Notes: generated from the sequence alone by a model not told the origin. A stretch of DNA of 22,398 bases from a virus (IMGVR_UViG_2563366887_000003), one strand, 5' to 3'; numbered from the stretch's first letter, positions 1,237 to 17,040 are shown. A program made the numbers and translations.

Positions 1237-1237
1237 A

Positions 1238-1453: not shown

Positions 1454-1552
1454 CGCATCACCTCTGGCAGGCGCCAATGTTAGACTTAAATTGACGCCCG
1501 ATGTTGATTATTAATAATCAGCTATGAAGTTTTAATTTGAATACAATGCAAT

Positions 1553-1753: not shown

Positions 1754-1778
1754 TATTATTTCCAGTGGTTCGTTTATT

Positions 1779-1928: not shown

Positions 1929-1983
1929 AATTTTTCTCATAAAAATATTTCAAGTTGGCGGTGCATTACACCGCCAGGCTGAA

Positions 1984-2792
1984 TTATTCCTCTGAATTAT
2001 CGATTACACTGTATTCCCCGGTTAATACAGAGGAATCTGCAGGATCGATTGTCAGTGGTTCCTTTTCATCCATTGATACTGCACGCTGGATCTCAATTGA
2101 TACGGGCAGATATTTGAACAGGCGACGAATAGCCGTTTTCTTTGCCATTTCTTCCCAGTGAGTTACCCACGGCCCGTTATTACCAGCTTTACTCTGGCTG
2201 CGCACCAGCTCAATCTGTTTGCGCGTCATAACTTCAAACTGAGTACCTCCGTCTTTCAGTCTTGCGACAGCATAGACGTGGGTAACAGGGGCATCTTCGT
2301 TTTCTCCTGGGCGGTGTATTAACTTTTCATCAAGGCCAAATTCGAAATTAAACTCGTCACCTTCACGGACAACACGGGCTGACAGGCTGGCGATTTGACC
2401 TGAACGGCGAGCCAGATCAATCATGCCGCGATAGCCAATGATTAGCTGAACGTTTTTTTACCGCTCTTTTCGTTTTTATTACCAAAAGGCAGTAAATATG
2501 CATGACCGAGGGCGCTACCGGGCTCAAGTCCGAGCTGTGAACACTGTACGATTGCACTGACAAAACTCATAGTGTCACAGTTTCCTAACGCCGGAACTTT
2601 ACGAATTTCTGTGGTGGCGATACGGATCATACGTTCAGCCGTCATATGGCGTGGAAGAGCTGCTGCCAGTTGCTCTTTCATTGATGGCTGGTTAATAAAA
2701 CTAATCACGTCGTTATTTTTAATTGCTGCTGGTGCACGGTTTCCCTGAGTTTTTTGCAGATCGGCTTTTGCGATTGGTGGTTGCTTAGTCAT
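1984..2792 (-). pseudogene. recT: recT (RecT single-strand annealing recombinase) disrupted by a -1 frameshift in a homopolymer
   Basis: Two adjacent minus-strand ORFs (2442..2849 and 1984..2424) together give exactly the 269-aa RecT sequence if one A is added to the A7 run (plus-strand T7 at 2453-2459). The N-terminal fragment ends ...NEKSGKKTFS*; the downstream frame continues NVQLIIGYRGMIDLARR... Confidence 0.85.
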
Positions 2793-5385
2793 TTGCATAT
2801 TCCTTAGCCCAGCGGGGCAGTGATAACGTCTTAATAGCTGGCCATTCATCGGTATTGAGGCAGTCAGCCAGGGTTCGCAGATTGCGGTGATATTCCAGCT
2901 GACCTGCCAGTTTTGCTTCTTCGCCCATCATGAAAATTTCAACCGGATAACGTCCGCATTCAATAGTTGTGCTGGCAACCAGAAAAACGAAAGTTGGCTG
3001 CACTCCAAACTGTGCTTCATAACCGTCACTGTAGAATGCATCCTGAACGTGATAGCGGTAGTCGTAATAAGCGGTTTTGAATCGTTGAATATCCGCCGTA
3101 GTTTTCACGTCCATGATCCAGTGAAATTCAGGGATAATTTTGTCCGGACGGCACCGACACAAAATTGCTGTTTCAGGATCTTCCCAGTAAATTGATGATT
3201 CAGCGTGTCCGGCGCTTTCAACAAGCCATTGCCCCAGCGGCAAAGCCATAACGCTCTGATACATGAGTTCAATTTTCCGGCCTTCTTCGGCAGTGATAAC
3301 CGTTTTTCCTGTGCTTGCGCATTCCCTCAGAAACGCTTTCTCTTCTTCTTTTCCGGAGTTTGTCCGGCGGTTAAATTCAGGTGCTACGATAAAGCGGTTA
3401 CTGAATTCTTCCGGCTCAAGTACCCGGCAGTGGAAAGCGGTTCCTAAATCGAGCGTTTTTGTCTTTGTGGTGTCCACGGGGGCATTTTTACGCCACAAAT
3501 ACAGTGCCGGAGTATCAGCAATGTCATCGAGCTGAGACTTACTGACACCGGGACCCGCGTGGTAATTCTCATTCGAAATTCCGTAATAAATACCTGGCTC
3601 TATGTCTTCTACGATTACGGGATCTGCGACTTCGCCAGTTTCATCACTGCAATCGCGATGCGGATCGCTGCCAGCATTCTCATTGTGCGGATGTTCAGCG
3701 CCTTCCATTTCCTCCGGATCATTTTCCTTAGCTTCAACCTGACTCTCTTCATCGAATGTTTCCTGGTATGTTGCGTCGCCCATCACCGCACCACAGTCAG
3801 GGCAGTTATCCCCGCCAGTCTGGCCGCAGGCATTGCAGGCTATTTCCGGTTCCTGTTGCACTACTGGCTCAGGTTGATTCATATCCGGGCTGGTTTTTTC
3901 CGTTTCTGGCTGGTTCTGGTACACACAATCGCGAGTCTGGATCCCCTTTACCCATTTCGGATCGTTCGGGTCGCTAATTCCGTCAACAAATTCACCACGT
4001 GATGCAGCAAGCAATTTATCGGCATCGACAGGATTTTTTGATGGAATGTTTTTCCGGGCTTCATGGAGTTCTGCCCGCAGTTCCTGATATTTCGCATCAA
4101 CAGAATTTACCTGTGACTGAGCATCCAGCGGCTGCGTGTCCTGATGATGTTCAGTTGCGTCCGGTTCCATTGTTTCAGCCTCTCCCTGTTCAACTGCCGT
4201 TGTTCCAGATGGTTGCGGTTTTTCTTCATCATCCTGTTTTCCTTCTTCTGTTACTCGCTGCGGCATCGGGGCAGAGGAGCGACCGCAGGCAATATCCACG
4301 ATTTCCGGATCAGGGTTGGCATGATCGGTTTCAGTCAGTACTTTGTTCAGATATTCAGTGACGTGCGCGGGGATGACCTCGATCCCAATTGGTGCTTCTT
4401 TTACGGACGCAACCACGATGGCGCGGGAATAATCCAGCCCGCCAGGCATGGTGATGAATTTGTCGCGGAAAACAGAAAAGGGCGGTTTATTTTCAGCGAT
4501 AATTTCCTCAATGCGTTTAGCGTGTGCCGGATGAAGGTTATAGATGTCCAGATCCATTGAACGGGCCAGTACGCCAGTGGCTACGTCCCGCGCCAGTGAC
4601 GTCAGATCGTGTACGAAACCTTCGCCGCGATCGGTGAGGTTTCCGCCGCCAGCATTAGCACCGGAAGCCGTGCGAGTGATGTGTGAAACACGATTACCCT
4701 TCATCCACTCTTTTGTCAGCAGTCCTCGATCGGTGTAGTCAGCGTTCAGGTATGCTTCGAAAAAAGCAGTTATCAGTCCCAGGTTTGAATTACCAGGATT
4801 AGGGAAAACTTTGTCAGTGTCACGAACCAGTTTGTGGAGTTCGCGAATTTCCAGCGGGTCGAGCAGGCTGGTTTTGTGGGAAACAGCCAGGGCAGTAACA
4901 GCCGGTAGTTCTTCAGCCCGAGCAATGTGTAATGCCTGGAGTCCGTCGCGTGAAACGTGCGTTACCGGTTTTTCGCTGCCGTGTTGAGCAAGCCAACGAA
5001 TGGGCAGTTCCTGGCCAGAAATTGGGAGTAGCATATTCTCCTCAATCTCAGTCATGTCTTCGCCGTTGACGTTGGTATTGCCTTGATAGTGAGCGTTGTC
5101 TGGTGCTGCTCCCGGTTTTAGTTCCCATGTCATGGAGTCTTTGCTGAGTTGATAGCGTTCACTCCAGGTAAAATCGATCTCACCTTCAGCGGGCAGGTCA
5201 TTAACGACAGGAAAATTCGTGGCAACAGCTTTAAAATAGCTGCTCAGTTTTTTACCTGACTTAACGATCAGGTAGTCCAGAGTGGCACAGGTCGATTCAA
5301 AATCGTTGCTTGCCCACAGGACGACGTCAGGTTCACCGGATGATTTTTTCGCTTTCCGTAACAGGAAGAGTGGTTTTGTGCTCAT
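2785..5385 (-). CDS. recE: Exodeoxyribonuclease VIII RecE (866 aa), intact
   Basis: Uninterrupted 866-aa minus-strand ORF, the same length as K-12 RecE; recognisable acidic central region and C-terminal nuclease region. Its stop overlaps the recT start by 8 nt. Confidence 0.9.
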
Positions 5386-5457
5386 TGTTTTTTAACCTCA
5401 ACTCAGATTAAAATTCGTTTTGTTCAGTGAATGATCTTGCCGGATACACACTGTTCA

Positions 5458-5480
5458 TAGCCTGCGCCATACGCAGGCTA
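5458..5480 (+). other. Perfect 9-bp stem-loop in the racC-recE intergenic region
   Basis: tagcctgcg-ccata-cgcaggcta followed by tttctttc on the plus strand, i.e. oriented as a terminator for antisense (plus-strand) transcription. On the coding (minus) strand no U-run follows it. Confidence 0.3.
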
Positions 5481-5486
5481 TTTCTT

Positions 5487-5762
5487 TCAGATTTCACCTT
5501 TTAATTTCATTGCAATTAGAGTTGCCAGAAATTCGGCTTTTTTTTCTGCGGGCAGATTCTTTCCGATATGCACCAGGCACATTTTTTTGACACCTTCATC
5601 AAGTGTTTTTACGTTGCCTGATGGACCATCGATATCAACCACAGTGAATGGGGTTTCTTTATTTTCTGTTTTAATTACGTAGCCAATGCGCTTTCCTTCC
5701 AGATTCACCTCGTGAACAATGTCATCGGTAGTTACAACAGTGGCTTCATAATTGGTAATCAT
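5487..5762 (-). CDS. racC: RacC (91 aa)
   Basis: MITNYEATVVTTDDIVHEVNLEGKRIGYVIKTENKETPF... matches my recollection of Rac RacC. ATG at 5760-5762 is preceded by AAGGAG; the 107-aa track ORF has no Shine-Dalgarno at its upstream start. Confidence 0.8.
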   Translation of the reverse strand: MITNYEATVVTTDDIVHEVNLEGKRIGYVIKTENKETPFTVVDIDGPSGNVKTLDEGVKKMCLVHIGKNLPAEKKAEFLATLIAMKLKGEI

Positions 5763-5836
5763 GTTTTTCTCCTTAATTAAGGTTGAGCGAATACCTGCCA
5801 TTTCTGGCATAAATTCAGTTTCGAATAGTCAATTAA

Positions 5837-6007
5837 TTAAAGTTCATGTGCCATCTGGTCTTTTTCGGCACAAGCTTCACTGCAATATTTTCTCGGTTCG
5901 TCTTTTGATAAAATCCCGTGCATGAAGTGAAGCATTCTTTCAATAGCTTTGCTTTCTTCAACGTCTTTTTTGCAAAGGTGGTAAGCACATTTTATTTTCT
6001 TAGTCAT
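5837..6007 (-). CDS. ydaE: YdaE-like small Cys/His-rich protein (56 aa)
   Basis: Below the track's size cutoff; my translation is [56 protein letters not shown]. Its start codon overlaps the kilR stop (TGATGA). Confidence 0.75.
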   Translation of the reverse strand: MTKKIKCAYHLCKKDVEESKAIERMLHFMHGILSKDEPRKYCSEACAEKDQMAHEL

Positions 6008-6228
6008 CACCATGACTCCGCCTTTACAGGTAAACCATCACGACCGAGGAAGACTTTAATCATGCGGTCAGTAATGCATGTTTTTGTGGTCAGGTTACGA
6101 ATATATAGTTTTCGCTTTTTAATATTGTTTGCCGAGGCAATATATGTCCGGCCTTCATGAAGAACATAATCGCCAGGAGTCACACACTGACGTGGTATTT
6201 CATCAGTTCCGAAGTGATGTGCAATCAT
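6007..6228 (-). CDS. kilR: KilR, FtsZ-targeting cell-division inhibitor (73 aa)
   Basis: [46 protein letters not shown]... matches my recollection of Rac KilR. ATG at 6226-6228 has a GGAGA Shine-Dalgarno; the track ORF starts 4 codons upstream. Confidence 0.85.
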
Positions 6229-6669
6229 AATTATCTCCATTTTTACAAATGAACTTTGTTGATGCGGTGCCTGGTGCCTCCAGGTGACTGCAACCAGTTA
6301 ACAATTACAGTCGGCTTTCCCACCCAAACCAATAAGGACTAACATGACTTTTAACTGTGCCACGTGCGCTTAGCCGCATTCACCGCATCACAAAATTCAC
6401 TTTAAAAAGGGCGGACATCAGCCGAACTTCAAGAAAAAAACTGATGCCGCCAGGACTACACACAGCAATGTCGTTATTTACAACCGGAGGCGCACTCCCA
6501 CCATTTAAATTTAACAGACAAGACCGACTCTTTATGGATACCGGAAATGCGCCTTCGTGTTGTGCCCGGTTTTATTTCACCACCTCCGGGCTTCGGTGGT
6601 CTCGGCTATACCCCTACAGCGAGAGCTTGTGTTAACATTTCAATACCCTTACAGTTGAGAGTTATTGAT

Positions 6670-7158
6670 ATGTTGGATGTATTTACTCCATTGTTGAAAC
6701 TTTTTGCTAACGAGCCACTCGAAATACTTATGTATACGATTATCATTTTTGGTCTCACTCTCTGGCTGATACCGAAAGAGTTTACTGTCGCATTCAATGC
6801 TTATACTGAAATACCTTGGCTCTTTCAGATTATCGTTTTTGCCTTTTCTTTCGTGGTCGCCATTTCCTTCTCAAGATTGCGAGCACATATTCAAAAGCAT
6901 TATTCATTACTACCAGAGCAACGAGTATTGCTTCGTTTATCTGAGAAAGAAATCGCTGTATTTAAAGATTTCCTTAAAACAGGAAATCTTATTATCACTT
7001 CTCCTTGCCGTAACCCGGTTATGAAAAAATTAGAACGGAAGGGCATCATTCAACATCAGAGTGATAGCGCAAACTGTTCTTATTATCTCGTCACCGAAAA
7101 ATACTCCCATTTTATGAAGTTATTCTGGAACAGCAGGAGTAGACGTTTTAATCGTTAG
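6670..7158 (+). CDS. sieB: Superinfection exclusion protein SieB (162 aa)
   Basis: MLDVFTPLLKLFANEPLEILMYTIIIFGLTLWLIPKEF... with hydrophobic N-terminal segments; matches my recollection of Rac SieB. The track ORF begins upstream at a non-ATG position. Confidence 0.85.
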   Translation: MLDVFTPLLKLFANEPLEILMYTIIIFGLTLWLIPKEFTVAFNAYTEIPWLFQIIVFAFSFVVAISFSRLRAHIQKHYSLLPEQRVLLRLSEKEIAVFKDFLKTGNLIITSPCRNPVMKKLERKGIIQHQSDSANCSYYLVTEKYSHFMKLFWNSRSRRFNR

Positions 7159-7310
7159 CTTACTGTGTGCTTCTCCAACCATCGGCGCGCACCAGTTTCG
7201 GTTTTAAATGTTTTGCTTTTGGTATACGTCATGGCAGTGAACGTTCCATCCTGGTTGGGGAACACGCCGCACACCAGGGATTCGTTGTTGCCGAGGTCGA
7301 TTTTTTGCAT
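7155..7310 (-). CDS. ydaF: YdaF-like small protein (51 aa)
   Basis: Below the track cutoff; my translation is MQKIDLGNNESLVCGVFPNQDGTFTAMTYTKSKTFKTETGARRWLEKHTVS. Overlaps sieB tail-to-tail by 4 nt. Confidence 0.7.
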   Translation of the reverse strand: MQKIDLGNNESLVCGVFPNQDGTFTAMTYTKSKTFKTETGARRWLEKHTVS

Positions 7311-7320
7311 TTTGCGAATC

Positions 7321-7455
7321 TCACATCTTGTTGCTGTGTATAGCGACTTCTGCCTGCCAGAGATCCCAGTCGTTGCTGCGTAAAGCCTGCACAGCCTGGT
7401 TGTAAGTGATACCGCAACAATCCATCAAATACTGAACTACTTCGTAATGCACCAT
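7321..7455 (-). CDS. ydaG: YdaG-like small protein (44 aa)
   Basis: Below the track cutoff; my translation is MVHYEVVQYLMDCCGITYNQAVQALRSNDWDLWQAEVAIHSNKM. Confidence 0.7.
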   Translation of the reverse strand: MVHYEVVQYLMDCCGITYNQAVQALRSNDWDLWQAEVAIHSNKM

Positions 7456-7504
7456 CTTATCTCTCCCCTTAACGCCGGGTGACCTAGTTTTACCATCGCT
7501 GCAT

Positions 7505-7648
7505 ATGGCAAACCGCGAACTGCGTCGGGCGAAAAATCATGTCCAGAAGTGGGAGCGAGTCTGCGCCGCGCTGCGGGAGCTGAACAAGCACCGGGATATT
7601 GTCCGACAGATTGTCGATTCCTCCAGTCGTATTGTGTCGGAAAAGTGA
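7505..7648 (+). CDS. Small charged ORF (47 aa), possibly the N-terminal part of a gene split by an in-frame TGA
   Basis: ATG at 7505; translation MANRELRRAKNHVQKWERVCAALRELNKHRDIVRQIVDSSSRIVSEK; no obvious Shine-Dalgarno. It is in the same frame as the 7664 ORF, separated only by TGA (7646-7648) and five codons. Confidence 0.25.
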   Translation: MANRELRRAKNHVQKWERVCAALRELNKHRDIVRQIVDSSSRIVSEK

Positions 7649-7663
7649 TTGCCGGAGGCGCTT

Positions 7664-8080
7664 ATGGCAAAAGTTTTTACACAGGAAGAGCGTGAAAAAA
7701 TTAAGGAGCAGGTTGTTGAGTTGGTACGCCAGAGTGGGCGCGAGACGTTAAGGCAACTGGAGGCCAAGACAGGTGCGACAAGATATCTGATGAGCATTCT
7801 TGCCAGAGAGTTGGTTGCCAGTGGCGATGTATACAACTCTGGCTATGGGTTATTCCCGTCTGAACAGGCTCGTAAGGATTGGAAAAACGCCCGCAAAAAA
7901 CTATCCAGGGCAAAGGTGAAAAAAACGGTTGTGGTTGATCCTGACCTTATCTGGTCATTACCAGACGGAGAAATACGCCGCTATGACAGGCGTCAGAACA
8001 TAATCTGTCGCGAGTGCCGGAAGAGTGAAGTTATGAAACGTGTACTGGCATTTTATCAAGGAAATCTTCGGTATTTATAG
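7664..8080 (+). CDS. Hypothetical protein (138 aa), basic, possibly DNA-binding
   Basis: ATG at 7664 with GGAGG 5 nt upstream (the track ORF starts at TTG 7649). GC content and codon usage look host-like. I cannot assign a family. Confidence 0.55.
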   Translation: MAKVFTQEEREKIKEQVVELVRQSGRETLRQLEAKTGATRYLMSILARELVASGDVYNSGYGLFPSEQARKDWKNARKKLSRAKVKKTVVVDPDLIWSLPDGEIRRYDRRQNIICRECRKSEVMKRVLAFYQGNLRYL

Positions 8081-8218
8081 ACGTTACTAGATCAAAGAGC
8101 ATTAGTTCATATGTAAATTGACATTTTTCTGGCACAGGGGAGAGCTAGCGTGGTTGTCCGCTTTGTGCCAATAGCGGACATTGCTGGCTCATGGTATGTT
8201 AGTTTAAGGAGGCAGGTT

Positions 8219-9241
8219 ATGCCCTGTATTTCGCTGTGGTATAATAGTTGCGCAATTGATACAAGGGAGCGTTACATCGTGAAAATTGTTTTCGAGGTTA
8301 ATGGAAAGAAAGTTCCACTAAAATCTTTAAAATACATAAGCAAAAAAGATCAACTCGAAGTAATGAAAAACTGGTTCTTTGAAAACTTTGAAGATCCGGC
8401 AAATGCTTGTCCGTATGAAAGTAGAGAAGGTGGCTATGCTTACATATATGGCGGGCCGTATGATGCGAGCGAAGAACTACAATCCATCTTCGGTCAATAT
8501 GTTAAATCTGAGTATATTGAGGAATTAGTAGATGAATTACAAACACAATGTTTTGACTGGTCTGGAAACTCAAATAATATAGATGATTGGTACGATGATG
8601 ATATCTACGACGCTGTAACGTCTTCCGGTAATCCGTATTTAAAATTCATTGATAATATCGATAAAATAAAAAAACTTGCAAAAGATAAAACTGAACAACA
8701 GCAAAAAAACCACTTGCTTAGTTTGCTCTACACGAATGTTATTACAGCTTTGGAAACGCTTTATGTTGAGCTATTCATTAATTCTATAGAGAAAGATGAT
8801 GTCTACATAGCCAATTGTATAGAAAAAGGTAAGACTGAATTTAAAGTAAGCAAAGATATTGCTGCGTTGCCTTTCAAGGGTGAACCCATCGAGAAAATTA
8901 GGGGAGAGCTAATCAGGTCAATCAAGGAACACTTGATCAGTGCAAGCTGGCATAGCACTAAAAAGGTAATCGACCGCTATGAAGCTACATTCGATATAAA
9001 AGTACAAAAAGACTGTCCGATAGAAGCTATTGAATTGGCAACCCTCAATCGAAATCACTTAGTGCATCGTGGTGGAAAGGATAAAGAAGGGAACCTCGTA
9101 GTGATTACAGACCAGGATCTTGAAACGCTGATTGAAAATGCATCGAACCTGGCAATTATGCTCTACAACAGTTTAAATGTAGCAACGAATAAAACCACCA
9201 TTTTGCAACCAGATGACAAACCGTTCATTCATGAATTTTAA
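8219..9241 (+). CDS. Hypothetical protein A of an AT-rich two-gene operon (341 aa from ATG 8219, or 320 aa from GTG 8279); C-terminal region carries an R-x4-H motif (RNHLVH) reminiscent of HEPN domains
   Basis: Long ORF with a sharp shift to AT-rich composition from about 8280. ATG 8219 has a perfect TAAGGAGG 6 nt upstream. Alternative GTG 8279 has AAGGGAG upstream and follows an extended -10 (TGgTATAAT at 8237-8245). No family recognised by eye. Confidence 0.7.
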   Translation: MPCISLWYNSCAIDTRERYIVKIVFEVNGKKVPLKSLKYISKKDQLEVMKNWFFENFEDPANACPYESREGGYAYIYGGPYDASEELQSIFGQYVKSEYIEELVDELQTQCFDWSGNSNNIDDWYDDDIYDAVTSSGNPYLKFIDNIDKIKKLAKDKTEQQQKNHLLSLLYTNVITALETLYVELFINSIEKDDVYIANCIEKGKTEFKVSKDIAALPFKGEPIEKIRGELIRSIKEHLISASWHSTKKVIDRYEATFDIKVQKDCPIEAIELATLNRNHLVHRGGKDKEGNLVVITDQDLETLIENASNLAIMLYNSLNVATNKTTILQPDDKPFIHEF

Positions 9242-9256
9242 TAGCGCAGGTCATAC

Positions 9257-10258
9257 ATGGATATTCGCACACGAAAGACAAAATTTTTAGAGTCGTTAGA
9301 TTCAACTGAAGTGATACGCAAAGCAGTAAGTCTCGCTATAGATTGCATTATTGATAATCATAATAGTAATGAAGATACCCCCTTAGTTATTACCAGCTAT
9401 GATGATCTCTGTAGAATCCAGGTGCTAAATTATGTACAGGAGTTTTGCGAAGCTGCATTCCCTGATATGGATGAATATTACTTTAGTCCTAACATACTTC
9501 GCATCAACGGCAAGACTAGTGAAGAAGCTTGTATTAACTTAATTAAACTCTTAAGAAGTACAAAAGGCATGCTATTCTGGTCCGATGCCCCATCGTGGTT
9601 CGCTAGCCTCCCCGACGGATTATTCCATGTTGTTAACATTGATCAAAAAATCGTTACTCGCGGCCTTAATAAGAAAAACTCTAAGCCGACAATAATCAAT
9701 AAAGATTACAGTGTAGATACACTACTATCAGAGCTATTTTTGAATGGCGCACACATGGAGCAACCCAACGTACACAACGTTTCTGAGGGAAACATGAAGT
9801 TCTATGATGAATGCCATGCTGGATTAATCAGACCAATACCCGCTCCAATAGGCGCGTCATACGATGAAGAGATCACAATTAATTCTCCAGATTGGCAAAA
9901 GCTCGCGTGTGTAGCTTTACGCCGCTATCAGTCGAAGGAATGTCATGACGGAATGCAATGGGATACAACCGATCATGGTTGGACTGATGTAATCGCGTAT
10001 CCATTCGTCGAAGAAATACAATCAATGGATAATAGTGGTTATCGACAATGTTTAGTTGGGCTGGTCACAATAAACAATTCAAATGCAAATTCTCCGTACC
10101 TATCTACCGTTTGGATACATCCATTTTATCGCAGGAGAGGGTTATTAAGTAAGTTATGGCCAAAATTACAAGAGTTATATGGAAGTAACTTCGAAATTGA
10201 GCGACCTAATGAAAATATGAAAGCATTTCTGAAAAGTGCGAAACACGCAGATTACTAA
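9257..10258 (+). CDS. Hypothetical protein B of the two-gene operon (333 aa)
   Basis: ATG 15 nt after the stop of protein A, same strand, same AT-rich composition. C-terminus (WIHPFYRRRGLLSKLW...NENMKAFLKSA) loosely resembles GNAT motifs A and B but the tail is too short for a canonical GNAT fold. Confidence 0.75.
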   Translation: MDIRTRKTKFLESLDSTEVIRKAVSLAIDCIIDNHNSNEDTPLVITSYDDLCRIQVLNYVQEFCEAAFPDMDEYYFSPNILRINGKTSEEACINLIKLLRSTKGMLFWSDAPSWFASLPDGLFHVVNIDQKIVTRGLNKKNSKPTIINKDYSVDTLLSELFLNGAHMEQPNVHNVSEGNMKFYDECHAGLIRPIPAPIGASYDEEITINSPDWQKLACVALRRYQSKECHDGMQWDTTDHGWTDVIAYPFVEEIQSMDNSGYRQCLVGLVTINNSNANSPYLSTVWIHPFYRRRGLLSKLWPKLQELYGSNFEIERPNENMKAFLKSAKHADY

Positions 10259-10812
10259 TTTATGAATCAGTCTGTGGAGTTAGGGTTGGTGTGAACAAGT
10301 AGGGTAAGAGCCTCAACGTGATGCTATGCCGACCTGCTCCCTGAGAATTCACACAGAAGGCTGCTAGCAATGTCTGCAGATCGCTCAAAGCGGACTAAAA
10401 TGTTGGCTTGTTTCTGACTTAGAGCATTTAAGGAAGTGCTGGTGGTGACTGGTTGTTGTGTTCCATTTCTACAGAATAAAATCACAGAAACTATACCCAA
10501 TAGTTGTATTGAATCACTGACGAGACAGCCTCATATTTATCAGGACTGGTGTGCGTCTAATACAGGGGGTTGTCGTGCTGGTTCTCAAATGTGCGCTGGC
10601 TATTGCGGCTGTAATGGCAATTTATTGTCTTGCTGTTGTTCTTATGGAGCGGCTTTCTGATTGATTACATACTGGCTAGAAAAAAGGTGTTACCTTGGTT
10701 TATCTTTGTCCGGCAAGGTGCGCTCATTAATCTTAAGTAAATTTATTGCTCAAGTATTCAGATTACTTCTTATGGTTGAAGTCTCCTGTCAATGTAGAAC
10801 CAATATATTTAC

Positions 10813-10850
10813 AAAAATGAGACCCGTCGGGGATAGCCCTGCCGGGTCTG
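10813..10850 (-). terminator. Rho-independent terminator downstream of the YeaR-like gene
   Basis: On the minus strand: GC-rich hairpin agacccg...cgggtct followed by cattttt, about 30 nt after the stop at 10879. Confidence 0.5.
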
Positions 10851-10878
10851 ACTGTTAAAGCATTTTTAATATGATCAT

Positions 10879-11217
10879 CTATTTTTTGGTGCTATAGACT
10901 TTTTCGCCCGAAAAGTCTGGAGCGACCCAAAAGTTAATATTAAACTGAGCATCATCGCTTAGTTCAACACGGTGCCAGTATTGTGGTGGGCTTGTTGCAA
11001 AAGCGCCAGCATTAATGACTACTTTTATCTCCGGTTCAGTAGCATTCTCATCAGTAAAACCATAATATGTTACAGTGCCTTCCATTACGCACAACTGCCC
11101 AAAAACACCTGCTGCTGTATTATGATGTGTTAATAACGCTGAAGGTACGTTCTCTTTTGTGAAGAACGGAGTTGAGCGTTTGATTACCCAATCTTTAGGA
11201 ATTCTCTTGTGTGTCAT
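10879..11217 (-). CDS. YeaR-like DUF1971 (cupin-like, TehB-N-domain-like) protein, 112 aa
   Basis: ATG at 11215-11217 with GGAGGAGGTGG Shine-Dalgarno. Sequence pattern RSTPFF...LCVMEGTVTYYGF...EP...AGAFA..PP..WH...FNINFWVAP parallels E. coli YeaR as I remember it. The track ORF starts 8 codons upstream, inside the palindrome. Confidence 0.7.
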   Translation of the reverse strand: MTHKRIPKDWVIKRSTPFFTKENVPSALLTHHNTAAGVFGQLCVMEGTVTYYGFTDENATEPEIKVVINAGAFATSPPQYWHRVELSDDAQFNINFWVAPDFSGEKVYSTKK

Positions 11218-11225
11218 AACCACCT

Positions 11226-11272
11226 CCTCCAAAAGATGCATTAAAAATGCATCTTTTGGAGGGTTATGTCAA
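11226..11272 (-). promoter_or_regulatory. Perfect 17-bp inverted repeat (3-nt spacer) resembling an NsrR operator, with a consensus -35 TTGACA immediately upstream
   Basis: cctccaaaagatgcatt-aaa-aatgcatcttttggagg at 11226-11262. Its core AAGATGCATTAAAAATGCATCTT matches the NsrR box (AAGATGCATTT-N-AAATGCATCTT, as I recall it) at 22 of 23 positions. On the minus strand TTGACA (plus 11267-11272) lies just upstream; the repeat ends 9 nt before the start codon. Confidence 0.6.
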
Positions 11273-12030
11273 GCTGTTATGAAACACATAATTGATATGT
11301 TGATTAGAGGAGAAGATAGAATAAATATGGTTGTTTTTCGTATAACTATTTGTTTTACTTTTAGTTTATGCATTCTGTGTGTTAGGAATAAGTTATTAAA
11401 GTTTAATCAAAAAATCTCGATGTAGTCCACATAGATTACTGTTACTGAACCTTATTGTGTGTATTAGTTGTGTTCTGAAATTTCAGCTTAATTATTTATG
11501 ATGTATTTTTTAACGATAAATATTTCCCCAGGATACCTTTACTGTGTATATAAATAAATTATATACGCATAAATAATGTAAAGGCGTCCTTTTAGATATA
11601 TCTTATCAAATGTTAATGACTTGAGTGGGAAATATGATTCCAGCAACTTATCATGTGGCTACTTTATAAAAATAATGCCCATATAAAACAACAAGCGAAA
11701 AGGATTACGGATAAAAAAGGAGCGAGATGTGCGAACTTGTTATTTTCCATGTTTAACCACCTTAAATAATTGATGATGACGGGATGATTGCATCTGTAAT
11801 GCTTTTATTGAAATGTTATGATAAAAAAGAACTTTTGCATAACATTAAAATGTAATTTATCTAATCGTTTTTAATAATAAGTGTCGTATTTCTATCCTTG
11901 TACCAGCTATTTGATATGTAGTGTTTGTTCATGCTATGTGGGGCTTTACACCATAGCCAGTTTATTTATACTTTATTCGTCAGCCTGAACAACTGGCATC
12001 TGCTGCGCTGCGCCATCGAGAGATTGAGAA

Positions 12031-12630
12031 ATGGCGCATATACAACTGGTCAAACAAACCTCTTCTGGTTTACTTCTCCCGGCGACGCCGGAGAGTTGCG
12101 ATTTTCTGCATCAAATCAAAATAGGTGAGTGGATACACGCAGACTTTAAGCGTGTGCGTAACTACGCATTCCACAAGCGTTTTTTCAAACTCCTGCAACT
12201 GGGATTCGATTACTGGACTCCGGTCGGTGGGGCGATCACGCCTCGCGAACGAGAACTGCTGTCTGGTTTCGTTGATTACCTGTGCGAATCAGTTGGTCGG
12301 GAACACACGCCAGCCCTGAGTGATGCCGCAGAGCAATACCTTAACACCGTTGCGACTCGTAGAACCCGGGATACGGCGTTGCTAAAGTCGTTTGAGGCTT
12401 TCCGCGAGTGGGTAACCATTCAGGCCGGATTTTACACCGAGCATATTTATCCGGACGGTAGCCGTGGGCGTCGGGCAAAATCCATCGCTTTTGCGAATAT
12501 GGACGAAGTCGAGTTTCAGCAGGTTTATAAATCTGTACTGAATGTGCTGTGGAACTGGATTCTGTTCCGTAAATTCTCCTCTCAGGAGGAAGTTGAAAAT
12601 GTGGCCGCACAACTACTGGAGTTTGCGTAA
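12031..12630 (+). CDS. Lambdoid nin-region protein, DUF1367-like (199 aa)
   Basis: ATG at 12031; the stop overlaps the next start (TAATG). Placement directly before the YbcO-like and Q-like genes is typical for nin regions. The family assignment is from memory and not certain. Confidence 0.65.
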   Translation: MAHIQLVKQTSSGLLLPATPESCDFLHQIKIGEWIHADFKRVRNYAFHKRFFKLLQLGFDYWTPVGGAITPRERELLSGFVDYLCESVGREHTPALSDAAEQYLNTVATRRTRDTALLKSFEAFREWVTIQAGFYTEHIYPDGSRGRRAKSIAFANMDEVEFQQVYKSVLNVLWNWILFRKFSSQEEVENVAAQLLEFA

Positions 12631-12920
12631 TGGTGAATTTACGTAAAGCGGCTAAAGGCCAGATGTGCCAGATCAGAATCCCTGGCTACTGCAATCACAA
12701 TCCCGAAACCTCTGTGCTGGCGCATTACAGGCTGGCGGGGACGTGCGGAACAGCGACAAAACCACATGATATGCAGGCGGCGATAGCCTGTAGCTCATGC
12801 CACGATCTAATCGACGGGCGGGTAAAAACCAGCGATTACACCAAAGAAGAATTGCGCCTGATGCATGCTGAAGGGGTTTTTCGCACACAAGAAATCTGGA
12901 GAAAGAAAGGTCATTTATGA
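12630..12920 (+). CDS. YbcO-like DUF1364 protein (96 aa, Cys/His-rich putative nuclease)
   Basis: MVNLRKAAKGQMCQIRIPGYCNHNPETSVLAHYRLAG..CSSCHDLIDGR contains a Cys/His cluster. Same length and position (just before Q) as DLP12 YbcO. Confidence 0.7.
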   Translation: MVNLRKAAKGQMCQIRIPGYCNHNPETSVLAHYRLAGTCGTATKPHDMQAAIACSSCHDLIDGRVKTSDYTKEELRLMHAEGVFRTQEIWRKKGHL

Positions 12921-13459
12921 TTTACCCAACGAATACAGGAAAAAGCGGAGAACACCTTCGCCTCACCACGCTGGAAAGTGTCTGGATTCAGGGAAAACTA
13001 CGTATGTGGGGGCGCTGGTCGTATATTGGCGGTGGCAGGTCAGGGAATATGTTCAATCAGTTGTTGGCATACAAAAAACTGACGAAAACAGCCATTAATG
13101 AAGCCCTGCGCAGAATGAAAAAAGCGGGAATAGAGAAAGCTGAGCTGGAAGCGTTTTTGCGAGAGATGATCAACGGCAAGCAAAAGAGCTGGCTGGCGCA
13201 TTGTACTGATGCAGAGGCGTTATGTATTGATCGAGTCATAAGTGAGGTGCTGGCAGAGCATCCAGGATTGATTTGCATTCTCCGGCAACGCTATGAAGGG
13301 CGGGGGATGACTAAGCGCAAAATGGCTGAATTGCTAAATGATGCACACCCAGAGTGGTGTTTTAGCACATGCGAAAAACGGATTGCTAATTGGTTAGCTG
13401 TTGCTGAGTATGCCCTATATATTCCCATGCGTGAATCATTTGCTGAGAAAATGGCTTGA
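12917..13459 (+). CDS. Late-gene antiterminator Q-like protein (180 aa)
   Basis: ATGA start/stop overlap with the preceding gene. Last gene before terminators and the lysis cassette, which is the canonical Q position. Family called from position and general resemblance only. Confidence 0.55.
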   Translation: MIYPTNTGKSGEHLRLTTLESVWIQGKLRMWGRWSYIGGGRSGNMFNQLLAYKKLTKTAINEALRRMKKAGIEKAELEAFLREMINGKQKSWLAHCTDAEALCIDRVISEVLAEHPGLICILRQRYEGRGMTKRKMAELLNDAHPEWCFSTCEKRIANWLAVAEYALYIPMRESFAEKMA

Positions 13460-13540
13460 TTTCTTACGTATAAACTGCTTCAATTTTGCTATGCTTCGCA
13501 AAGCTGTATCGCGAGGCGGATTGCAGACATGGACATCGTA

Positions 13541-13566
13541 AAAAAACCGCTTAATGCGGTTTTTTT
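13541..13566. terminator. Bidirectional rho-independent terminator after the Q-like gene
   Basis: aaaaaaccgc-ttaat-gcggttttttt: a short GC stem flanked by an A6 run and a T7 run. Confidence 0.6.
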
Positions 13567-13886
13567 ACGTCAGGAAAGCAGGGGAGAATGCTGCTAGTTG
13601 GGCAACTGGTCTTTCTGCTCCAAATTATAACAGAGACCAGTTATAGTTTCGGTGCTGTGTTTTTTTTACAATATTGTGATAACACATTGCTGGCGGGAGT
13701 TTTGATATTTCTTGGCAGGGGCTGATGATGCGTTATCCTGATGTCGTCAACTCATATAAAATGAGATGAGAGATCATTGCAGGGTGGTTTGTAATTCGCT
13801 GTTTAGCGGGACAATATGTTGTCTGATACAAGACACCCGACGCCTCAGATTACTATAATAAAGACGAAGCATCCTTTGTATTGACC

Positions 13887-13912
13887 AACCGCCTGTTTAG
13901 GCGGTTCTTTTT
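13887..13912 (+). terminator. Rho-independent terminator (tR'-like candidate)
   Basis: aaccgcc-tgttta-ggcggtt followed by cttttt. Confidence 0.55.
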
Positions 13913-14444
13913 GGGCTGGTTTATTGTATGCCAAATGATTATTAAAAAGGTTGTGTTAATAACAAAATCCGAAATAATATGCCTGCATATTTTTATCTTG
14001 CTTATATTCTGCATATTGTGCATAGCAGGCTCATCCCTGCAATCAAAACTGTATGATGAGTATTTTTTGTTTTCCTTTTTTCCAGTCATCTGATGATGAC
14101 CTGCTTCTTTTTAATCCGGATCGACATCAGTTTTTTAAGATAATTCCTGCGAGTTATATGCATAAATGCCACAAACTCCGCATTTTATGTGGTTGGGAGT
14201 TGCCGGGCGCGCAGTGAGTTTGCTAAGAAAACTCCTGCATGGTGAATCCCCCTGTGCGGTGGGGTGATACCATTAACCTTTTCTGTCGCCGACAGGTATC
14301 ACGAACATTTTGTTCACCGGGAGGCACCCGGCACCATGCACTTCAATAGATTCTCTCCACATTATGGATATTCTTTCAGAATATCCCACGCAGACTTTGT
14401 GTAAATGTTAACAAATGTGCGTTTTATTTGATCTGATTCGCTGT

Positions 14445-14474
14445 TTGAGCGTCCAAAACAACGGTATATATAAT
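14445..14474 (+). promoter_or_regulatory. Candidate sigma70 promoter for the first TolA-like lipoprotein gene
   Basis: TTGAGC (14445-14450), 18-nt spacer, TATAAT (14469-14474), about 30 nt upstream of the start codon. Confidence 0.4.
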
Positions 14475-14503
14475 CCTTTACTATATGACATATGTGAGGA
14501 AAA

Positions 14504-14932
14504 ATGGGTTTTCGTAGCGCATCAATTCTTACGTTGATTATTAGTGGGATTATTATCGGGTGCACTGATGCTGTATCGACAAATTATCATGACCGTACAT
14601 CATATTACTCCGATAAAGCAATAGAGACACAGTATGTGAGTTCATCTGAACGTACTTCTGATGTTAGTGAGGATATCCGTCTGTATGCCCATCAAATCAA
14701 GAGCGCCATCGAAAAACAGTTCGGGGATGCGAGTAAGTATTCAGGAAAAGAGTGTACACTGAGAATGCATATGGCCCCGAATGGCCTTCTACTGGAGGTT
14801 AAAAGAGAAAGTGGAGACCTCGATTTATGTCGTGAAGCGATGAATGCGATAAAGAATGCTGATATACCTGCCCCCCCTTCGCCGGAAGTATATAAAGTAT
14901 TTCAAAATGGGGTGCTGGATTTTAAACCCTGA
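14504..14932 (+). CDS. Lipoprotein with a C-terminal TolA-domain-III-like domain (142 aa)
   Basis: Signal peptide with lipobox IIGC (MGFRSASILTLIISGIIIGC). C-terminal 85 aa, YAHQIKSAIEKQFGDASKYSGKECTLRMHMAPNGLLLEVKRESGDLDLCREAMNAIKNADIPAPPSPEVYKVFQNGVLDFKP, closely parallels the TolA C-terminus as I recall it (YAGQIKSAIESKFYDASSYAGKTCTLRIKLAPDGMLLDIKPEGGDPALCQAALAAAKLAKIPKPPSQAVYEVFKNAPLDFKP). Confidence 0.8.
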   Translation: MGFRSASILTLIISGIIIGCTDAVSTNYHDRTSYYSDKAIETQYVSSSERTSDVSEDIRLYAHQIKSAIEKQFGDASKYSGKECTLRMHMAPNGLLLEVKRESGDLDLCREAMNAIKNADIPAPPSPEVYKVFQNGVLDFKP

Positions 14933-15082
14933 TATTTATTGTTTTGTAATAAACGGTTTCGGCTTAGGTTTGTTCTGACACAGCTACGGCACTGAGCTAA
15001 ATTTAGCGGATAGTCAGCTCTGAGCCAGTGGCGGACGTAACAACTACTATTGCTGAGATTTTAATGGATTGAGGAGCAAGAA

Positions 15083-15478
15083 GTGGGATTAAAGAAAATC
15101 GTTATGTTGACTTTTTGGGTCGGTTTTGTTGCGGGATGCACACCTTTACACCCTTCAGATTGCCACAAAACTACTGCTACAGGTAGTTGCAGTTCAGGAC
15201 GCTGGGATGATCAGGATGAATGGGGGGCGCAAGCGCGGGGAATCAGAGCTGCAATTAATGCCAAACTTGATGAGCCGCATAACTGGAAAGGGAAAAAATG
15301 CAGGTTGCATATGGAATTCTCTCAGGATGGCACGGCGTTAAAAATATCTACCAGTAACGGTGATAAAGCCTATTGCGAAGCGATAAAGTCCGCAGCTCAT
15401 AAAGCCAAATTTCCGGCCTTCAACAATCCGGAAGTCTACAGAGATTTTCAGAAATCTGGCTTTGACATGCGAGGTTAG
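15083..15478 (+). CDS. Second, more divergent TolA-domain-III-like lipoprotein (131 aa)
   Basis: GTG start at 15083 with GAGGAG 6 nt upstream. Lipobox VAGC (MGLKKIVMLTFWVGFVAGC). C-terminus KKCRLHMEFSQDGTALKISTSNGDKAYCEAIKSAAHKAKFPAFNNPEVYRDFQKSGFDMRG keeps the two Cys residues and the PEVY motif of the first copy. Confidence 0.7.
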   Translation: MGLKKIVMLTFWVGFVAGCTPLHPSDCHKTTATGSCSSGRWDDQDEWGAQARGIRAAINAKLDEPHNWKGKKCRLHMEFSQDGTALKISTSNGDKAYCEAIKSAAHKAKFPAFNNPEVYRDFQKSGFDMRG

Positions 15479-15729
15479 CTCTTCAATTACTATATCTCAT
15501 TCATAGCAAACTGACAGATTTGATGATGTTCTATATACGAAACCTGTGATGTCAAGTCTGAGCTAATACAAATAAACATAATATCAGAGAAATACATTTT
15601 ATTAGCTCGCTACGGCGAGCTTTTTATATTGCATCGTCTCCAGCATATATATCAATTAAGGCTCTGATTGATGTGTCTGAAAGCCTACACATAATAACTA
15701 TGCCATCCGTTCCGTGCGGAGGTGAGGCT

Positions 15730-15945
15730 ATGAAATCCATGGACAAAATTTCAACAGGCATTGCCTACGGCACCTCCGCAGGCAGTGCTGGCTACTGGTT
15801 TTTACAGTTGCTCGATAGAGTAACTCCGTCACAGTGGGCTGCAATCGGTGTGCTGGGTAGTCTGGTATTTGGCCTGCTGACGTACCTGACAAACCTTTAT
15901 TTCAAGATTAAAGAAGATAAGCGCAAGGCTGCGAGAGGTGAATAA
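15730..15945 (+). CDS. Phage 21-type pinholin (S21-like, 71 aa) with dual-start motif
   Basis: [71 protein letters not shown]. Two in-frame ATGs (15730 and 15739; M-K-S-M) as in S21 antiholin/holin. GGAGGTGAGG Shine-Dalgarno upstream; TAATG overlap with the endolysin. Confidence 0.85.
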
Positions 15946-16442
15946 TGCCTCCATCATTACGAAAAGTCGTTGCTGCTGCTATTGGTGGCGGAGCAATTGC
16001 TATAGCATCAGTGTTAATCACTGGCCCAAGTGGTAACGATGGTCTGGAAGGTGTCAGCTACATACCATACAAAGATATTGTTGGTGTATGGACTGTATGT
16101 CACGGGCATACAGGAAAAGACATCATGCTCGGTAAAACGTATACCAAAGCAGAATGCAAAACACTCTTGAATAAAGACCTTGCCACTGTCGCCAGACAAA
16201 TTAACCCGTACATCAAAGTCGATATACCGGAAACAACGCGCGGCGCTCTTTACTCATTCGTTTACAACGTGGGTGCTGGCAATTTCAGAACATCGACGCT
16301 TCTTCGCAAAATAAACCAGGGCGATATCAAAGGCGCATGTGATCAGCTACGTCGCTGGACATATGCTGGCGGTAAGCAATGGAAAGGTCTCATGACTCGT
16401 CGTGAGATTGAGCGTGAAATCTGTTTGTGGGGTCAGCAATGA
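15945..16442 (+). CDS. SAR endolysin (R21-like lysozyme, 165 aa)
   Basis: N-terminal Gly/Ala-rich weakly hydrophobic signal-anchor-release segment ([20 protein letters not shown]) followed by a lysozyme-like domain; overlaps the holin stop and the Rz start. Confidence 0.85.
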
Positions 16443-16903
16443 ACAGAGTAACCGCGATTATCTCCGCTCTGGTTATCTGCATCATCGTCTGCCTGTCATG
16501 GGCTGTTAATCATTACCGTGATAACGCCATTACCTACAAAGCCCAGCGCGACAAAAATGCCAGAGAACTGAAGCTGGCGAACGCGGCAATTACTGACATG
16601 CAGATGCGTCAGCGTGATGTTGCTGCGCTCGATGCAAAATACACGAAGGAGTTAGCTGATGCGAAAGCTGAAAATGATGCTCTGCGTGATGATGTTGCCG
16701 CTGGTCGTCGTCGGTTGCACATCAAAGCAGTCTGTCAGTCAGTGCGTGAAGCCACCACCGCCTCCGGCGTGGATAATGCAGCCTCCCCCCGACTGGCAGA
16801 CACCGCTGAACGGGATTATTTCACCCTCCGGGAACGACTGGTAATGATGCAGGCCCAACTTGAAGGTGCTCAGCAATACATAACCGAGCAGTGTTTAAAG
16901 TAA
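16439..16903 (+). CDS. Rz-like i-spanin (154 aa)
   Basis: ATG at 16439 overlaps the endolysin stop (ATGA). N-terminal TM segment followed by a coiled-coil-like Ala/Arg/Asp-rich periplasmic domain. The track ORF starts at GTG 16427. Confidence 0.8.
16659..16844 (+). CDS. rzoR: Rz1-like o-spanin lipoprotein (61 aa), embedded in the +1 frame of Rz
   Basis: [24 protein letters not shown]...[15 protein letters not shown]: lipobox VVGC and a proline-rich tail; matches my recollection of Rac RzoR. Confidence 0.8.
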
Positions 16904-17040
16904 AATCTTAACTACAATATGATTCATTTTGATGATTGTTTCATAAGGAACAGTGAAGTAAGATCTAAGAGGAGTTAAATTTTATACAGTATAATCATAA
17001 TATTGCAGCAAGGTGGTTATAATTGAAAGAATATTTAGAT

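What the first reader, a model, noticed from the sequence alone, without database searches (positions are those of the whole stretch)
7456..12030. No repressor, cro or replication genes; the immunity region is replaced by cargo
Between ydaG and the nin-like genes, where Rac carries its repressor, cro-like and replication genes, the only candidates are a 47-aa ORF, a 138-aa basic protein, the AT-rich two-gene module, a Cys-rich small ORF and the YeaR-like gene. None looks like a cI/Cro-type repressor or an O/P-type replication protein. Yet toxic or lytic functions are retained: kilR is intact and the holin-endolysin-spanin cassette is intact. The element is therefore probably a defective prophage held silent by other means, such as loss of the early promoter or H-NS binding of the AT-rich DNA.
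Basis: inference. Interest (0 to 1): 0.5.

Follow-up and report, generated by a model that had tools for sequence, protein, structure and literature searches.

The report
Rac prophage with deleted immunity region
This is an ordinary decayed Rac-type prophage of E. coli in which one clean 3.7-kb deletion removed the repressor, its promoters and the replication genes, so the leftover killer and lysis genes probably stay quiet because nothing drives them any more.

Summary
Window 7456-12030 has no repressor, cro-like or replication gene. The reading "replaced by cargo" does not hold.

Relatives that are 99.97-100% identical (NCTC9112, FORC_081) carry the same cargo and also an extra block. That block holds OL/PL, an HTH repressor, OR/PR, a cro-like gene, ydaT, ydaU, ydaV and DUF1627. 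The window lacks exactly 3,677 bp of it. The junction is at 7481|7482 (CCGGGTG|ACCTAG, TG microhomology).

- The 47-aa ORF is the C-terminal stump of DUF1627.
- The 138-aa protein is a Ren-like DUF977 winged-helix protein that also sits in intact phages.
- "Protein A" is a HEPN-fold protein with an invariant Rx4H motif.
- Its partner has a weak GNAT-like C-terminus.

Both operator/promoter sets went together with the repressor and the toxic ydaT-type genes. This matches K-12 genetics, where racR can only be lost together with ydaS/ydaT. kilR keeps its local KilS leader. The element also lacks all structural genes.

The same junction occurs in strain S3. BL21(DE3) and 62 other genomes carry a larger deletion with the identical left end.

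This is a known kind of prophage decay, so interest is low. Two side observations stand out: a left breakpoint reused to the base by four different deletions, and an uncharacterised mobile HEPN + GNAT-like cassette.

The parts
6007..6228 (-). kilR, intact FtsZ-inhibitor toxin gene
   Evidence: It is 99.5% identical to the K-12 kilR region and the protein differs by one residue, F51C. It is annotated as killing protein KilR in identical relatives.
6404..6501 (-). KilS, the kilR 5'-leader sRNA; a local RacR-independent transcription unit that is retained
   Evidence: 100% identical to K-12 kilS, b4833. PMC8175672 reports that KilS has its own TSS.
6670..7158 (+). sieB superinfection-exclusion gene
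   Evidence: RefSeq annotation of identical relatives.
7155..7310 (-). ydaF (DUF1391)
   Evidence: Annotation of relatives.
7321..7455 (-). 44-aa ydaG-like ORF, the last gene kept on the left of the deletion. Only 26 bp of its upstream region survive.
   Evidence: phrog_14709.
7480..7483 (.). Deletion junction, ...CCGGGTG|ACCTAG..., with TG microhomology at 7480-7481. It replaces 3,677 bp (L001 3083-6759).
   Evidence: BLAST of the window against NCTC9112 and FORC_081, and base-level alignment. The identical junction occurs in S3 and in L117.
7482..7648 (+). C-terminal remnant of the DUF1627 gene (last 55 codons).
   Evidence: Pfam DUF1627 E 2e-19, profile positions 120-155 of 155. It is collinear with L001 6760-6926.
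7664..8080 (+). DUF977 / Ren-like protein (138 aa) with an N-terminal winged helix. A phage backbone gene, not the immunity repressor.
   Evidence: Pfam 108.6 bits. phrog_142 'Ren-like exclusion protein' 1e-46. AF2 model and Foldseek winged-helix hits. Present downstream of DUF1627 in intact relatives.
8279..9241 (+). Protein A: HEPN_RES_NTD1 N-terminal domain plus a RiboL-PSP-type HEPN domain with invariant R258-x4-H263
9257..10258 (+). Protein B: unknown N-terminal region plus a GNAT-like C-terminal domain, 15 nt downstream of A
   Evidence: Acetyltransf_1 E 9e-4, just below the cut-off. 10 of 28 homologs match, best 6e-6. The pair is conserved in Aeromonas caviae.
10575..10664 (+).
   Evidence: GTG start with an AGGGGG SD. 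The S3 copy differs by synonymous and conservative changes in this frame. No family hit.
10879..11217 (-). DUF1971 (YeaR / TehB-N-like) cargo gene
   Evidence: Pfam 91.8 bits; NCBIfam TehB N-terminal region 5e-13.
11242..12030 (.). AT-rich (GC 0.31-0.34) non-coding spacer before the nin-like genes. It holds the best sigma-70-like site of the region, at 11945-11972 (+).
12031..13459 (+). DUF1367 (YbcN-like), YbcO and a DUF1133 Q-like antiterminator; the start of the retained late-control region
   Evidence: Pfam; PHROG 'anti-termination protein Q-like' 1e-78.
15730..16903 (+). Lysis cassette: essD holin, rrrD endolysin, Rz-like spanin
   Evidence: RefSeq annotation of the 100%-identical FORC_081 DNA, with no pseudogene flags.

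Best explanation
The window is a Rac-family cryptic prophage remnant at the ttcA locus. A single illegitimate deletion of 3,677 bp, with its junction at 7481|7482, removed a contiguous block:
- the leftward operator/promoter (OL/PL) and its leader;
- the HTH_3 repressor gene;
- the rightward operator/promoter (OR/PR);
- the cro-like gene;
- the cII-like ydaT;
- the replication genes ydaU and ydaV;
- the first four fifths of the DUF1627 gene.

The cargo was already there before the deletion. It comprises the Ren-like DUF977 gene, a HEPN + GNAT-like cassette and DUF1971. It occupies the variable ren-nin slot of this phage family.

The repressor and both promoters it controlled were lost together, along with the toxic ydaT-type early genes. 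The element therefore needs no repressor. The leftward operon (ydaG-ydaF-kilR-recET) and the rightward path to the Q-like antiterminator and the lysis genes have no early promoter left. This step is inferred.

kilR keeps only its local KilS leader unit. In K-12, kilR toxicity is held down by Rho/NusG-dependent termination; applying this to the window is an inference from the literature.
For: Shown here:
- The window aligns with NCTC9112 as two gapless blocks, 4400-7481 and 7476-14500, at 99.97% identity. 3,677 bp are missing between them.
- The missing block encodes HTH_3, cro-like HTH, YdaT, DUF1376, IstB/DnaC-like and DUF1627 proteins.
- It also holds four copies of an ATGTACTnnnnnGTTCA-like operator. 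Two lie at L001 3225-3270 and overlap a minus-strand TTTACA-17-CATTAT site. Two lie at 3791-3829 in the repressor-cro spacer.
- Only 26 bp remain upstream of the ydaG-like ATG.
- No minus-strand promoter-like site was found between 7456 and 8650.
- The cargo is identical in intact relatives.
- The same junction is in S3 and L117.
- Homology with K-12 Rac stops at window 7481 and resumes at 16459.

From the literature:
- racR can be deleted only together with ydaS/ydaT and their intergenic region. An engineered sieB-ydaU deletion that leaves kilR in place is viable. ydaS always co-occurs with racR, and kilR (48%) is commoner than ydaS (33.7%) in 154 genomes (PMC5700373).
- RacR depletion or titration derepresses ydaG, ydaF, kilR, ydaE, racC, recET, xisR and intR.
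- Deleting kilR confers resistance to bicyclomycin, a Rho inhibitor.
- KilS has its own TSS, and it is 100% conserved here.
Against: - No expression data exist for this strain, so silence is inferred, not shown.
- The consensus promoter scan is weak evidence. Counts were at or below shuffled expectation.
- No terminator-like site lies between sieB and 10599 on the + strand. Read-through from sieB could therefore transcribe DUF977 and the cargo.
- A 10/12 sigma-70-like site sits 59 nt upstream of the DUF1367-YbcO-Q-like genes, so Q might not be fully silent. The same site exists in intact lysogens.
- The exact order of events relative to FORC_081 is unresolved. FORC_081 shares the right breakpoint but keeps the repressor.
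Confidence: 0.82

Rival explanations
1. Replacement. A cargo cassette was inserted in place of the immunity and replication region by substitution or module exchange.
For: The slot between DUF977 and DUF1367 really is a variable cargo site in Rac-like prophages: DUF262+TPR+Hok in S3, KilA-N+Hok in DP051, and another gene in 1217KP. The DNA is AT-rich.
Against: Intact relatives at 99.97% identity have both the immunity/replication block and the identical cargo. The junction truncates DUF1627 in frame with the parental sequence. No foreign DNA lies at the junction.
Confidence: 0.03
2. Substitute repressor. The winged-helix DUF977 protein, or another retained factor, now represses kilR and the late genes.
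For: The N-terminal 80 residues of DUF977 are predicted as helix-strand-helix-helix-wing. The best Foldseek hits are MarR/GntR/IclR/Z-alpha winged helices, with probability about 0.99 and E about 0.02. phrog_2391 'DNA binding protein' matches at 1.5e-6.
Against: DUF977 sits after the replication genes in intact phages that already have a canonical repressor/cro pair. It is classed as Ren-like. A65EC and BL21(DE3) have lost it yet keep kilR and the lysis genes. No operator-like repeats were seen near kilR.
Confidence: 0.05
3. Silencing is mainly by host factors. H-NS on the AT-rich DNA and Rho-dependent termination in the kilR leader, rather than promoter loss, keep the toxic genes off.
For: GC is 0.31-0.43 over 8000-12000. 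The KilS leader with its own TSS is retained at 100% identity. kilR toxicity appears when Rho is inhibited, and H-NS controls Rac excision in K-12.
Against: These mechanisms also operate in intact lysogens. There, RacR loss still derepresses kilR 40-70 fold. So they do not by themselves explain survival without a repressor. They complement promoter loss rather than replace it.
Confidence: 0.1
4. Assembly or collapse artefact. The immunity region exists in the real genome but was dropped by the assembler.
For: The closest relative, FORC_081, differs only in this region.
Against: There are no repeats at the ends beyond a 2-bp microhomology. The identical junction is found in an independent complete genome (S3) and in an IMG/VR contig. 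Several other natural deletions of the same region exist.
Confidence: 0.02

Closest known systems
Rac cryptic prophage of E. coli K-12 (b1345-b1375)
   Same: The left arm, intR-xisR-ralR/RalA-recT-recE-racC-ydaE-kilR-KilS-sieB-ydaF-ydaG, is collinear at 98.8% identity up to window 7481. The Rz-trkG-ynaK segment is 99.3% identical.
   Different: K-12 keeps racR-ydaS-ydaT-ydaU-ydaV and the N-terminal part of DUF1627 (ydaW). It has lost DUF977, the cargo, the nin-like genes, Q, holin and endolysin. The window has the complementary deletion. The parental immunity type of the window (139-aa HTH_3 repressor) is heteroimmune to RacR.
Rac remnant of E. coli B / BL21(DE3), plus 62 other complete genomes
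   Same: kilR, sieB, ydaF and ydaG are retained, and the lysis genes and trkG are retained. There is no repressor, cro or replication gene. The left deletion end is identical to the base...CCGGGTG|.
   Different: The right end lies inside essD. DUF977, the cargo, the nin-like genes and Q are therefore also gone.
Engineered racR-containing deletions in K-12 (Krishnamurthi et al. 2017, PMC5700373)
   Same: Viable only when racR is removed together with ydaS/ydaT and the intergenic promoter region. A sieB-ydaU deletion leaves kilR intact without a repressor.
   Different: Those deletions are laboratory constructs. The one here is a natural microhomology deletion that keeps sieB, ydaF and ydaG.
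HEPN toxins of HEPN-MNT toxin-antitoxin and Abi systems (for protein A)
   Different: The partner is a GNAT-like protein, not a MNT nucleotidyltransferase. There is an extra HEPN_RES_NTD1 N-terminal domain. No PADLOC model matches. Distant homologs occur without the partner.
Lambda Ren (for the 138-aa DUF977 protein)
   Same: Same map position, directly after the replication genes and before the nin region. PHROG label 'Ren-like exclusion protein'.
   Different: Function was not tested. The predicted winged helix suggests nucleic-acid binding.

Membership tests
Rac-family lambdoid prophage | Collinear intR-xisR-recT-recE-racC-ydaE-kilR-sieB-ydaF-ydaG arm with high identity to K-12 Rac | tested here: met
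   Window 1-7481 is 98.8% identical to K-12 1,412,000-1,419,482.
Rac-family lambdoid prophage | Integration next to ttcA | tested here: inconclusive
   The window starts inside intR. The 100%-identical FORC_081 copy and the S3 and DP051 copies lie directly next to ttcA.
Lambdoid immunity region (repressor / cro / operators) | Divergent HTH repressor and cro-like genes | tested here: not met
   No HTH_3/Cro/cI hit for any ORF of 50 aa or more in 7456-12030. Both genes are present in relatives at L001 3347-4100.
Lambdoid immunity region (repressor / cro / operators) | Repeated operator sites flanking the repressor gene (OL, OR) | tested here: not met
   The four operator copies of the parental type lie at L001 3225-3270 and 3791-3829. 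All are inside the deleted 3083-6759.
Phage replication module (YdaU/YdaV or lambda O/P type) | Initiator (DUF1376 or O-like) plus DnaC/IstB-like or P-like helicase loader | tested here: not met
   Absent from the window. Present in L001 at 4532-6142.
HEPN superfamily (protein A) | Conserved Rx4-6H motif | tested here: met
   R258, H263 and R264 are invariant in 32 homologs down to 26% identity.
HEPN superfamily (protein A) | All-alpha HEPN fold | tested here: met
HEPN superfamily (protein A) | Ribonuclease activity / toxicity | not testable with these tools
   Needs biochemical or expression assays.
GNAT acetyltransferases (protein B) | Match to the GNAT profile above the curated threshold | tested here: inconclusive
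   19.9 bits against a 20.7 cut-off for the window protein. 10 of 28 homologs match at E<=0.01, best 6e-6. No PDB sequence match.
DUF977 / Ren-like (138-aa protein) | Pfam PF06163 above threshold and position after the replication genes | tested here: met
   108.6 bits against a 22.1 cut-off. phrog_142 1e-46. Synteny in L001.
Known anti-phage defence systems (PADLOC) | Any PADLOC model hit for the cargo proteins | tested here: not met
   No hits at E<=0.01 for five cargo proteins.

The most novel reading that the evidence does not exclude
The loss of the immunity region may not be a random accident. It may be the product of a site-preferring deletion process. The left end, 26 bp upstream of ydaG (CCGGGTG|GCGG, inside a sequence conserved across heteroimmune Rac-like phages), is used to the base by at least four deletions with different right ends:
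- window/S3, ending in DUF1627;
- DP051, ending in ydaV;
- A65EC, ending upstream of the HEPN gene;
- BL21-type, ending in essD.

The window's right end is shared with a different deletion in FORC_081.

A specific break or stall at this module boundary could repeatedly 'disarm' Rac prophages, removing repressor, promoters and toxic early genes in one step. The site might be Chi-like (2 mismatches; the FORC_081 site is 1 mismatch from Chi).
Probability: 0.25. Interest if true: 0.5.

Novelty: already known. Interest (0 to 1): 0.2.

Why it matters
For the finding itself, little. It is one more example of how cryptic prophages decay. It also gives a natural confirmation of a rule worked out in K-12: a prophage repressor can be lost only together with the promoters and toxic early genes it controls.

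It corrects the annotation in three places:
- the 47-aa ORF is a gene stump;
- the Cys-rich ORF is probably the wrong reading frame;
- the cargo is not a replacement.

Two by-products could be worth a bench test:
- the recurrent, base-identical left breakpoint, which points to a deletion hot spot at a phage module boundary;
- the mobile HEPN + GNAT-like pair, an uncharacterised candidate toxin or defence cassette shared between E. coli prophages and Aeromonas mobilisable elements.

Tried and rejected
- Rfam at gathering thresholds on the window and L001 found only RalA and STnc100. Nothing was found in 7456-12030 or in the deleted PL leader.
- Folding the about 169-nt PL leader of the intact relative gave z = +1.46, so it is not a structured put-like RNA.
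- PADLOC gave no hit for any cargo protein.
- The DUF977 homolog search returned only sequences at least 88% identical, so the AF2 alignment was shallow and the C-terminal half is low-confidence.
- No hok gene or remnant was found in the window by tblastn.
- The 138-aa gene upstream of the Aeromonas A-B pair is unrelated to DUF977, so there is no three-gene cassette.
- IS-mediated adjacent deletion was considered for the fixed left end. The IS2/IS3 copies in relatives sit between DUF977 and the cargo, not at the hot spot.
- Direct-repeat slippage was considered. The only 8-nt repeat (ACTGAAAC) is out of register with the junction.
- Scans of IMG/VR and JGI metagenomes for further junction partners found only BL21-type and S3-type alleles.
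- No paper describing the hot spot was found.
Full report
**What is in the interval.**
The window is a Rac-type prophage. Positions 1-7481 are collinear with K-12 Rac (intR through ydaG) at 98.8% identity. Positions 16459-18889 match K-12 rzpR-trkG-ynaK at 99.3%.

None of them, nor any other ORF of 50 aa or more on either strand, matches a repressor, Cro, O/P, YdaU or DnaC-like family.

**What happened.**
A megablast of 5400-13500 against 5,426 complete E. coli genomes found relatives that are 99.9-100% identical but 2.4-3.7 kb longer.

In NCTC9112 (L001) the extra DNA lies between the 44-aa ORF and DUF977. It encodes the following:
- a 139-aa HTH_3 repressor on the minus strand;
- an 84-aa cro-like HTH protein;
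- YdaT;
- YdaU (DUF1376);
- YdaV (IstB/DnaC-like);
- a 253-aa DUF1627 protein.

The window aligns to L001 as two gapless blocks, window 4400-7481 = L001 1-3082 and window 7476-14500 = L001 6754-13778. There are three mismatches in all. So the window lacks L001 3083-6759, which is 3,677 bp. The junction reads CCGGGTG|ACCTAG and only TG is shared by both parental sites.

The 47-aa ORF (7505-7648) is the tail of DUF1627: Pfam profile positions 120-155 of 155, E 2e-19.

DUF977, the two-gene module and DUF1971 are present and identical in the intact relatives. The cargo therefore did not replace anything.

**What was lost besides genes.**
The intact relative has four copies of an ATGTACTnnnnnGTTCA-like motif.
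- Two copies, 24 bp apart, lie at L001 3225-3270 between the repressor stop and the ydaG-like gene. They overlap a minus-strand TTTACA-17-CATTAT site.
- Two copies, 24 bp apart, lie at 3791-3829 in the 79-bp repressor-cro spacer, around a TTGAAT-N17-TATAGC site.

This is the classical OL/PL and OR/PR layout. It is an inference from the sequence pattern. All four copies lie inside the deletion. Only 26 bp remain upstream of the ydaG-like start codon.

**Why the element can live without a repressor.**
K-12 work shows the following.
- racR can be deleted only together with ydaS/ydaT and their intergenic region (PMC5700373).
- A sieB-ydaU deletion leaving kilR is viable (same paper).
- ydaS never occurs without racR in 154 genomes, while kilR is more frequent, 48% against 33.7% (same paper).
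- RacR depletion or titration derepresses ydaG, ydaF, kilR, ydaE, racC, recET, xisR and intR as well as ydaS/T.

The natural deletion here removes the repressor, both early promoters and the toxic ydaT-type genes at once. This is the tolerated combination.

kilR retains its own leader. The KilS sRNA region is 100% identical at 6404-6501 and is reported to have an independent TSS. kilR toxicity in K-12 surfaces when Rho is inhibited. Rho/NusG attenuation probably remains the second layer of control.

The Q-like gene (DUF1133, 12917-13459) and the lysis cassette are intact. In lambdoid phages they depend on rightward early transcription, and that promoter is gone here. This step is an inference from established lambda biology.

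Caveats:
- the promoter scans are weak;
- no terminator-like site separates sieB from the cargo;
- a 10/12 promoter-like site precedes the DUF1367 gene.

The prophage is defective anyway. The small-terminase gene is truncated and fused to a sitB fragment at about 21170, and no structural genes remain.

**The candidate proteins.**
*The 138-aa protein.* It is DUF977 (108.6 bits) and falls in phrog_142, 'Ren-like exclusion protein'. Its N-terminal 80 residues model as a winged helix, and the best Foldseek hits are MarR/GntR/IclR/Z-alpha domains. It is probably a nucleic-acid-binding protein, but it is not the immunity repressor. It coexists with one in intact phages. A65EC and BL21(DE3) lack it and still keep kilR.

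*Protein B (9257-10258).* It has a weak GNAT-like C-terminus.

*The pair.* A and B recur at 86% and 79% identity on an Aeromonas caviae mobilisable element next to SIR2/cREC genes. More distant A homologs stand alone. No PADLOC model matches.

*The Cys-rich ORF.* The 74-aa ORF is probably the wrong frame. A 29-aa hydrophobic peptide ORF (10575-10664) with a good SD shows synonymous and conservative changes in S3.

**How common, and the breakpoints.**
The exact junction is found in 1 of 5,426 complete genomes (S3) and in one IMG/VR contig. In S3 the DNA is nearly identical for about 70 bp past the junction and then diverges into another DUF977 allele and different cargo.

Other natural deletions of the same region exist:
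- DP051: ydaG-like ORF joined to the ydaV C-terminus;
- A65EC: joined just upstream of protein A;
- BL21(DE3) and 62 other genomes: joined inside essD;
- FORC_081: internal ydaU/ydaV deletions.

Unexpectedly, the window/S3, DP051, A65EC and BL21 alleles share the left end to the base (L001 3082). FORC_081 shares the window's right end.

The left site lies in a sequence (CCGGGTGGCGGAAC) conserved among heteroimmune Rac-like phages, just before their immunity cassettes diverge.

I could not explain this. IS-mediated deletion and direct-repeat slippage do not fit. A Chi-like sequence is a speculative lead.

**Verdict.**
The thing itself is a known kind of prophage decay, and the finding is of low interest. 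Two side observations are recorded for follow-up: the breakpoint hot spot and the HEPN + GNAT-like cassette.

Noticed in passing
window 7481 (= L001 3082), also L003, L004, L006, L007: The left deletion end, CCGGGTG|, 26 bp upstream of the ydaG-like ATG, is identical to the base in four deletions with different right ends: DUF1627, ydaV, upstream of the HEPN gene, and essD. All junctions have TG or TGG microhomology. The mechanism is unexplained.
   Followed up: partly
window 7482 (= L001 6759/6760); L002 5482: FORC_081 is 100% identical to the window elsewhere and still has the repressor. It carries a different deletion (ydaV-internal to DUF1627) with the same right end as the window. A Chi-like octamer (GCAGGTGG) lies 5 nt left of its other end.
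   Followed up: partly
window 10575-10664 (+): A 29-aa hydrophobic peptide ORF (VLVLKCALAIAAVMAIYCLAVVLMERLSD) with an AGGGGG SD. It is conserved in strain S3 with synonymous and conservative changes. It overlaps, in another frame, the 74-aa 'Cys-rich ORF'. It resembles a type I toxin-like peptide, but no family hit was found.
   Followed up: partly
window 8279-10258 (+): A mobile two-gene cassette: a HEPN protein (HEPN_RES_NTD1 + RiboL-PSP type, invariant Rx4H) plus a GNAT-like protein. It is also found at 86%/79% identity on an Aeromonas caviae mobilisable element beside SIR2/cREC genes. It is not in PADLOC.
   Followed up: partly
window 8081-12030; L003 9763-14505; L004 7486-10984; L141 6558-11471: The slot between DUF977 and DUF1367 is a variable cargo site in Rac-like prophages. 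Contents seen: HEPN+GNAT+DUF1971; DUF262+TPR+Hok; a hypothetical gene+KilA-N+Hok+DUF1971; and a 455-aa hypothetical gene. It is also a target of IS2/IS3 insertions.
   Followed up: partly
window 6404-6501 (-): The KilS sRNA (kilR 5' leader) is 100% identical to K-12. KilR itself differs from K-12 by F51C.
   Followed up: yes
window 7482-16458 versus K-12 1,419,483-1,423,199: The window and K-12 Rac carry complementary deletions. K-12 keeps the immunity/replication block and lacks everything from the DUF1627 C-terminus to Rz. The window keeps that stretch and lacks the block.
   Followed up: yes
L001 3065-3222: The about 160-bp PL leader of the intact relative is shared at 88-94% identity by lambdoid prophages in well over a thousand other genomes, with unrelated genes to its left. 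It is not notably structured (z +1.46) and has no Rfam match.
   Followed up: partly
window 20540-21484: The small-terminase gene is truncated (20540-21172) and abuts a sitB fragment followed by sitA. All head, tail and packaging genes of the prophage are missing.
   Followed up: no
window 1557-1735 (+) and 14207-14393 (+): Rfam matches to the RalA antitoxin sRNA (225 bits) and to STnc100 (86.6 bits, downstream of the Q-like gene).
   Followed up: no
window 11945-11972 (+): The best sigma-70-like site of the region (TTTACA-16-TATACT, 10/12) lies 59 nt upstream of the DUF1367-YbcO-Q-like genes. It could give repressor-independent expression of the Q-like antiterminator.
   Followed up: no
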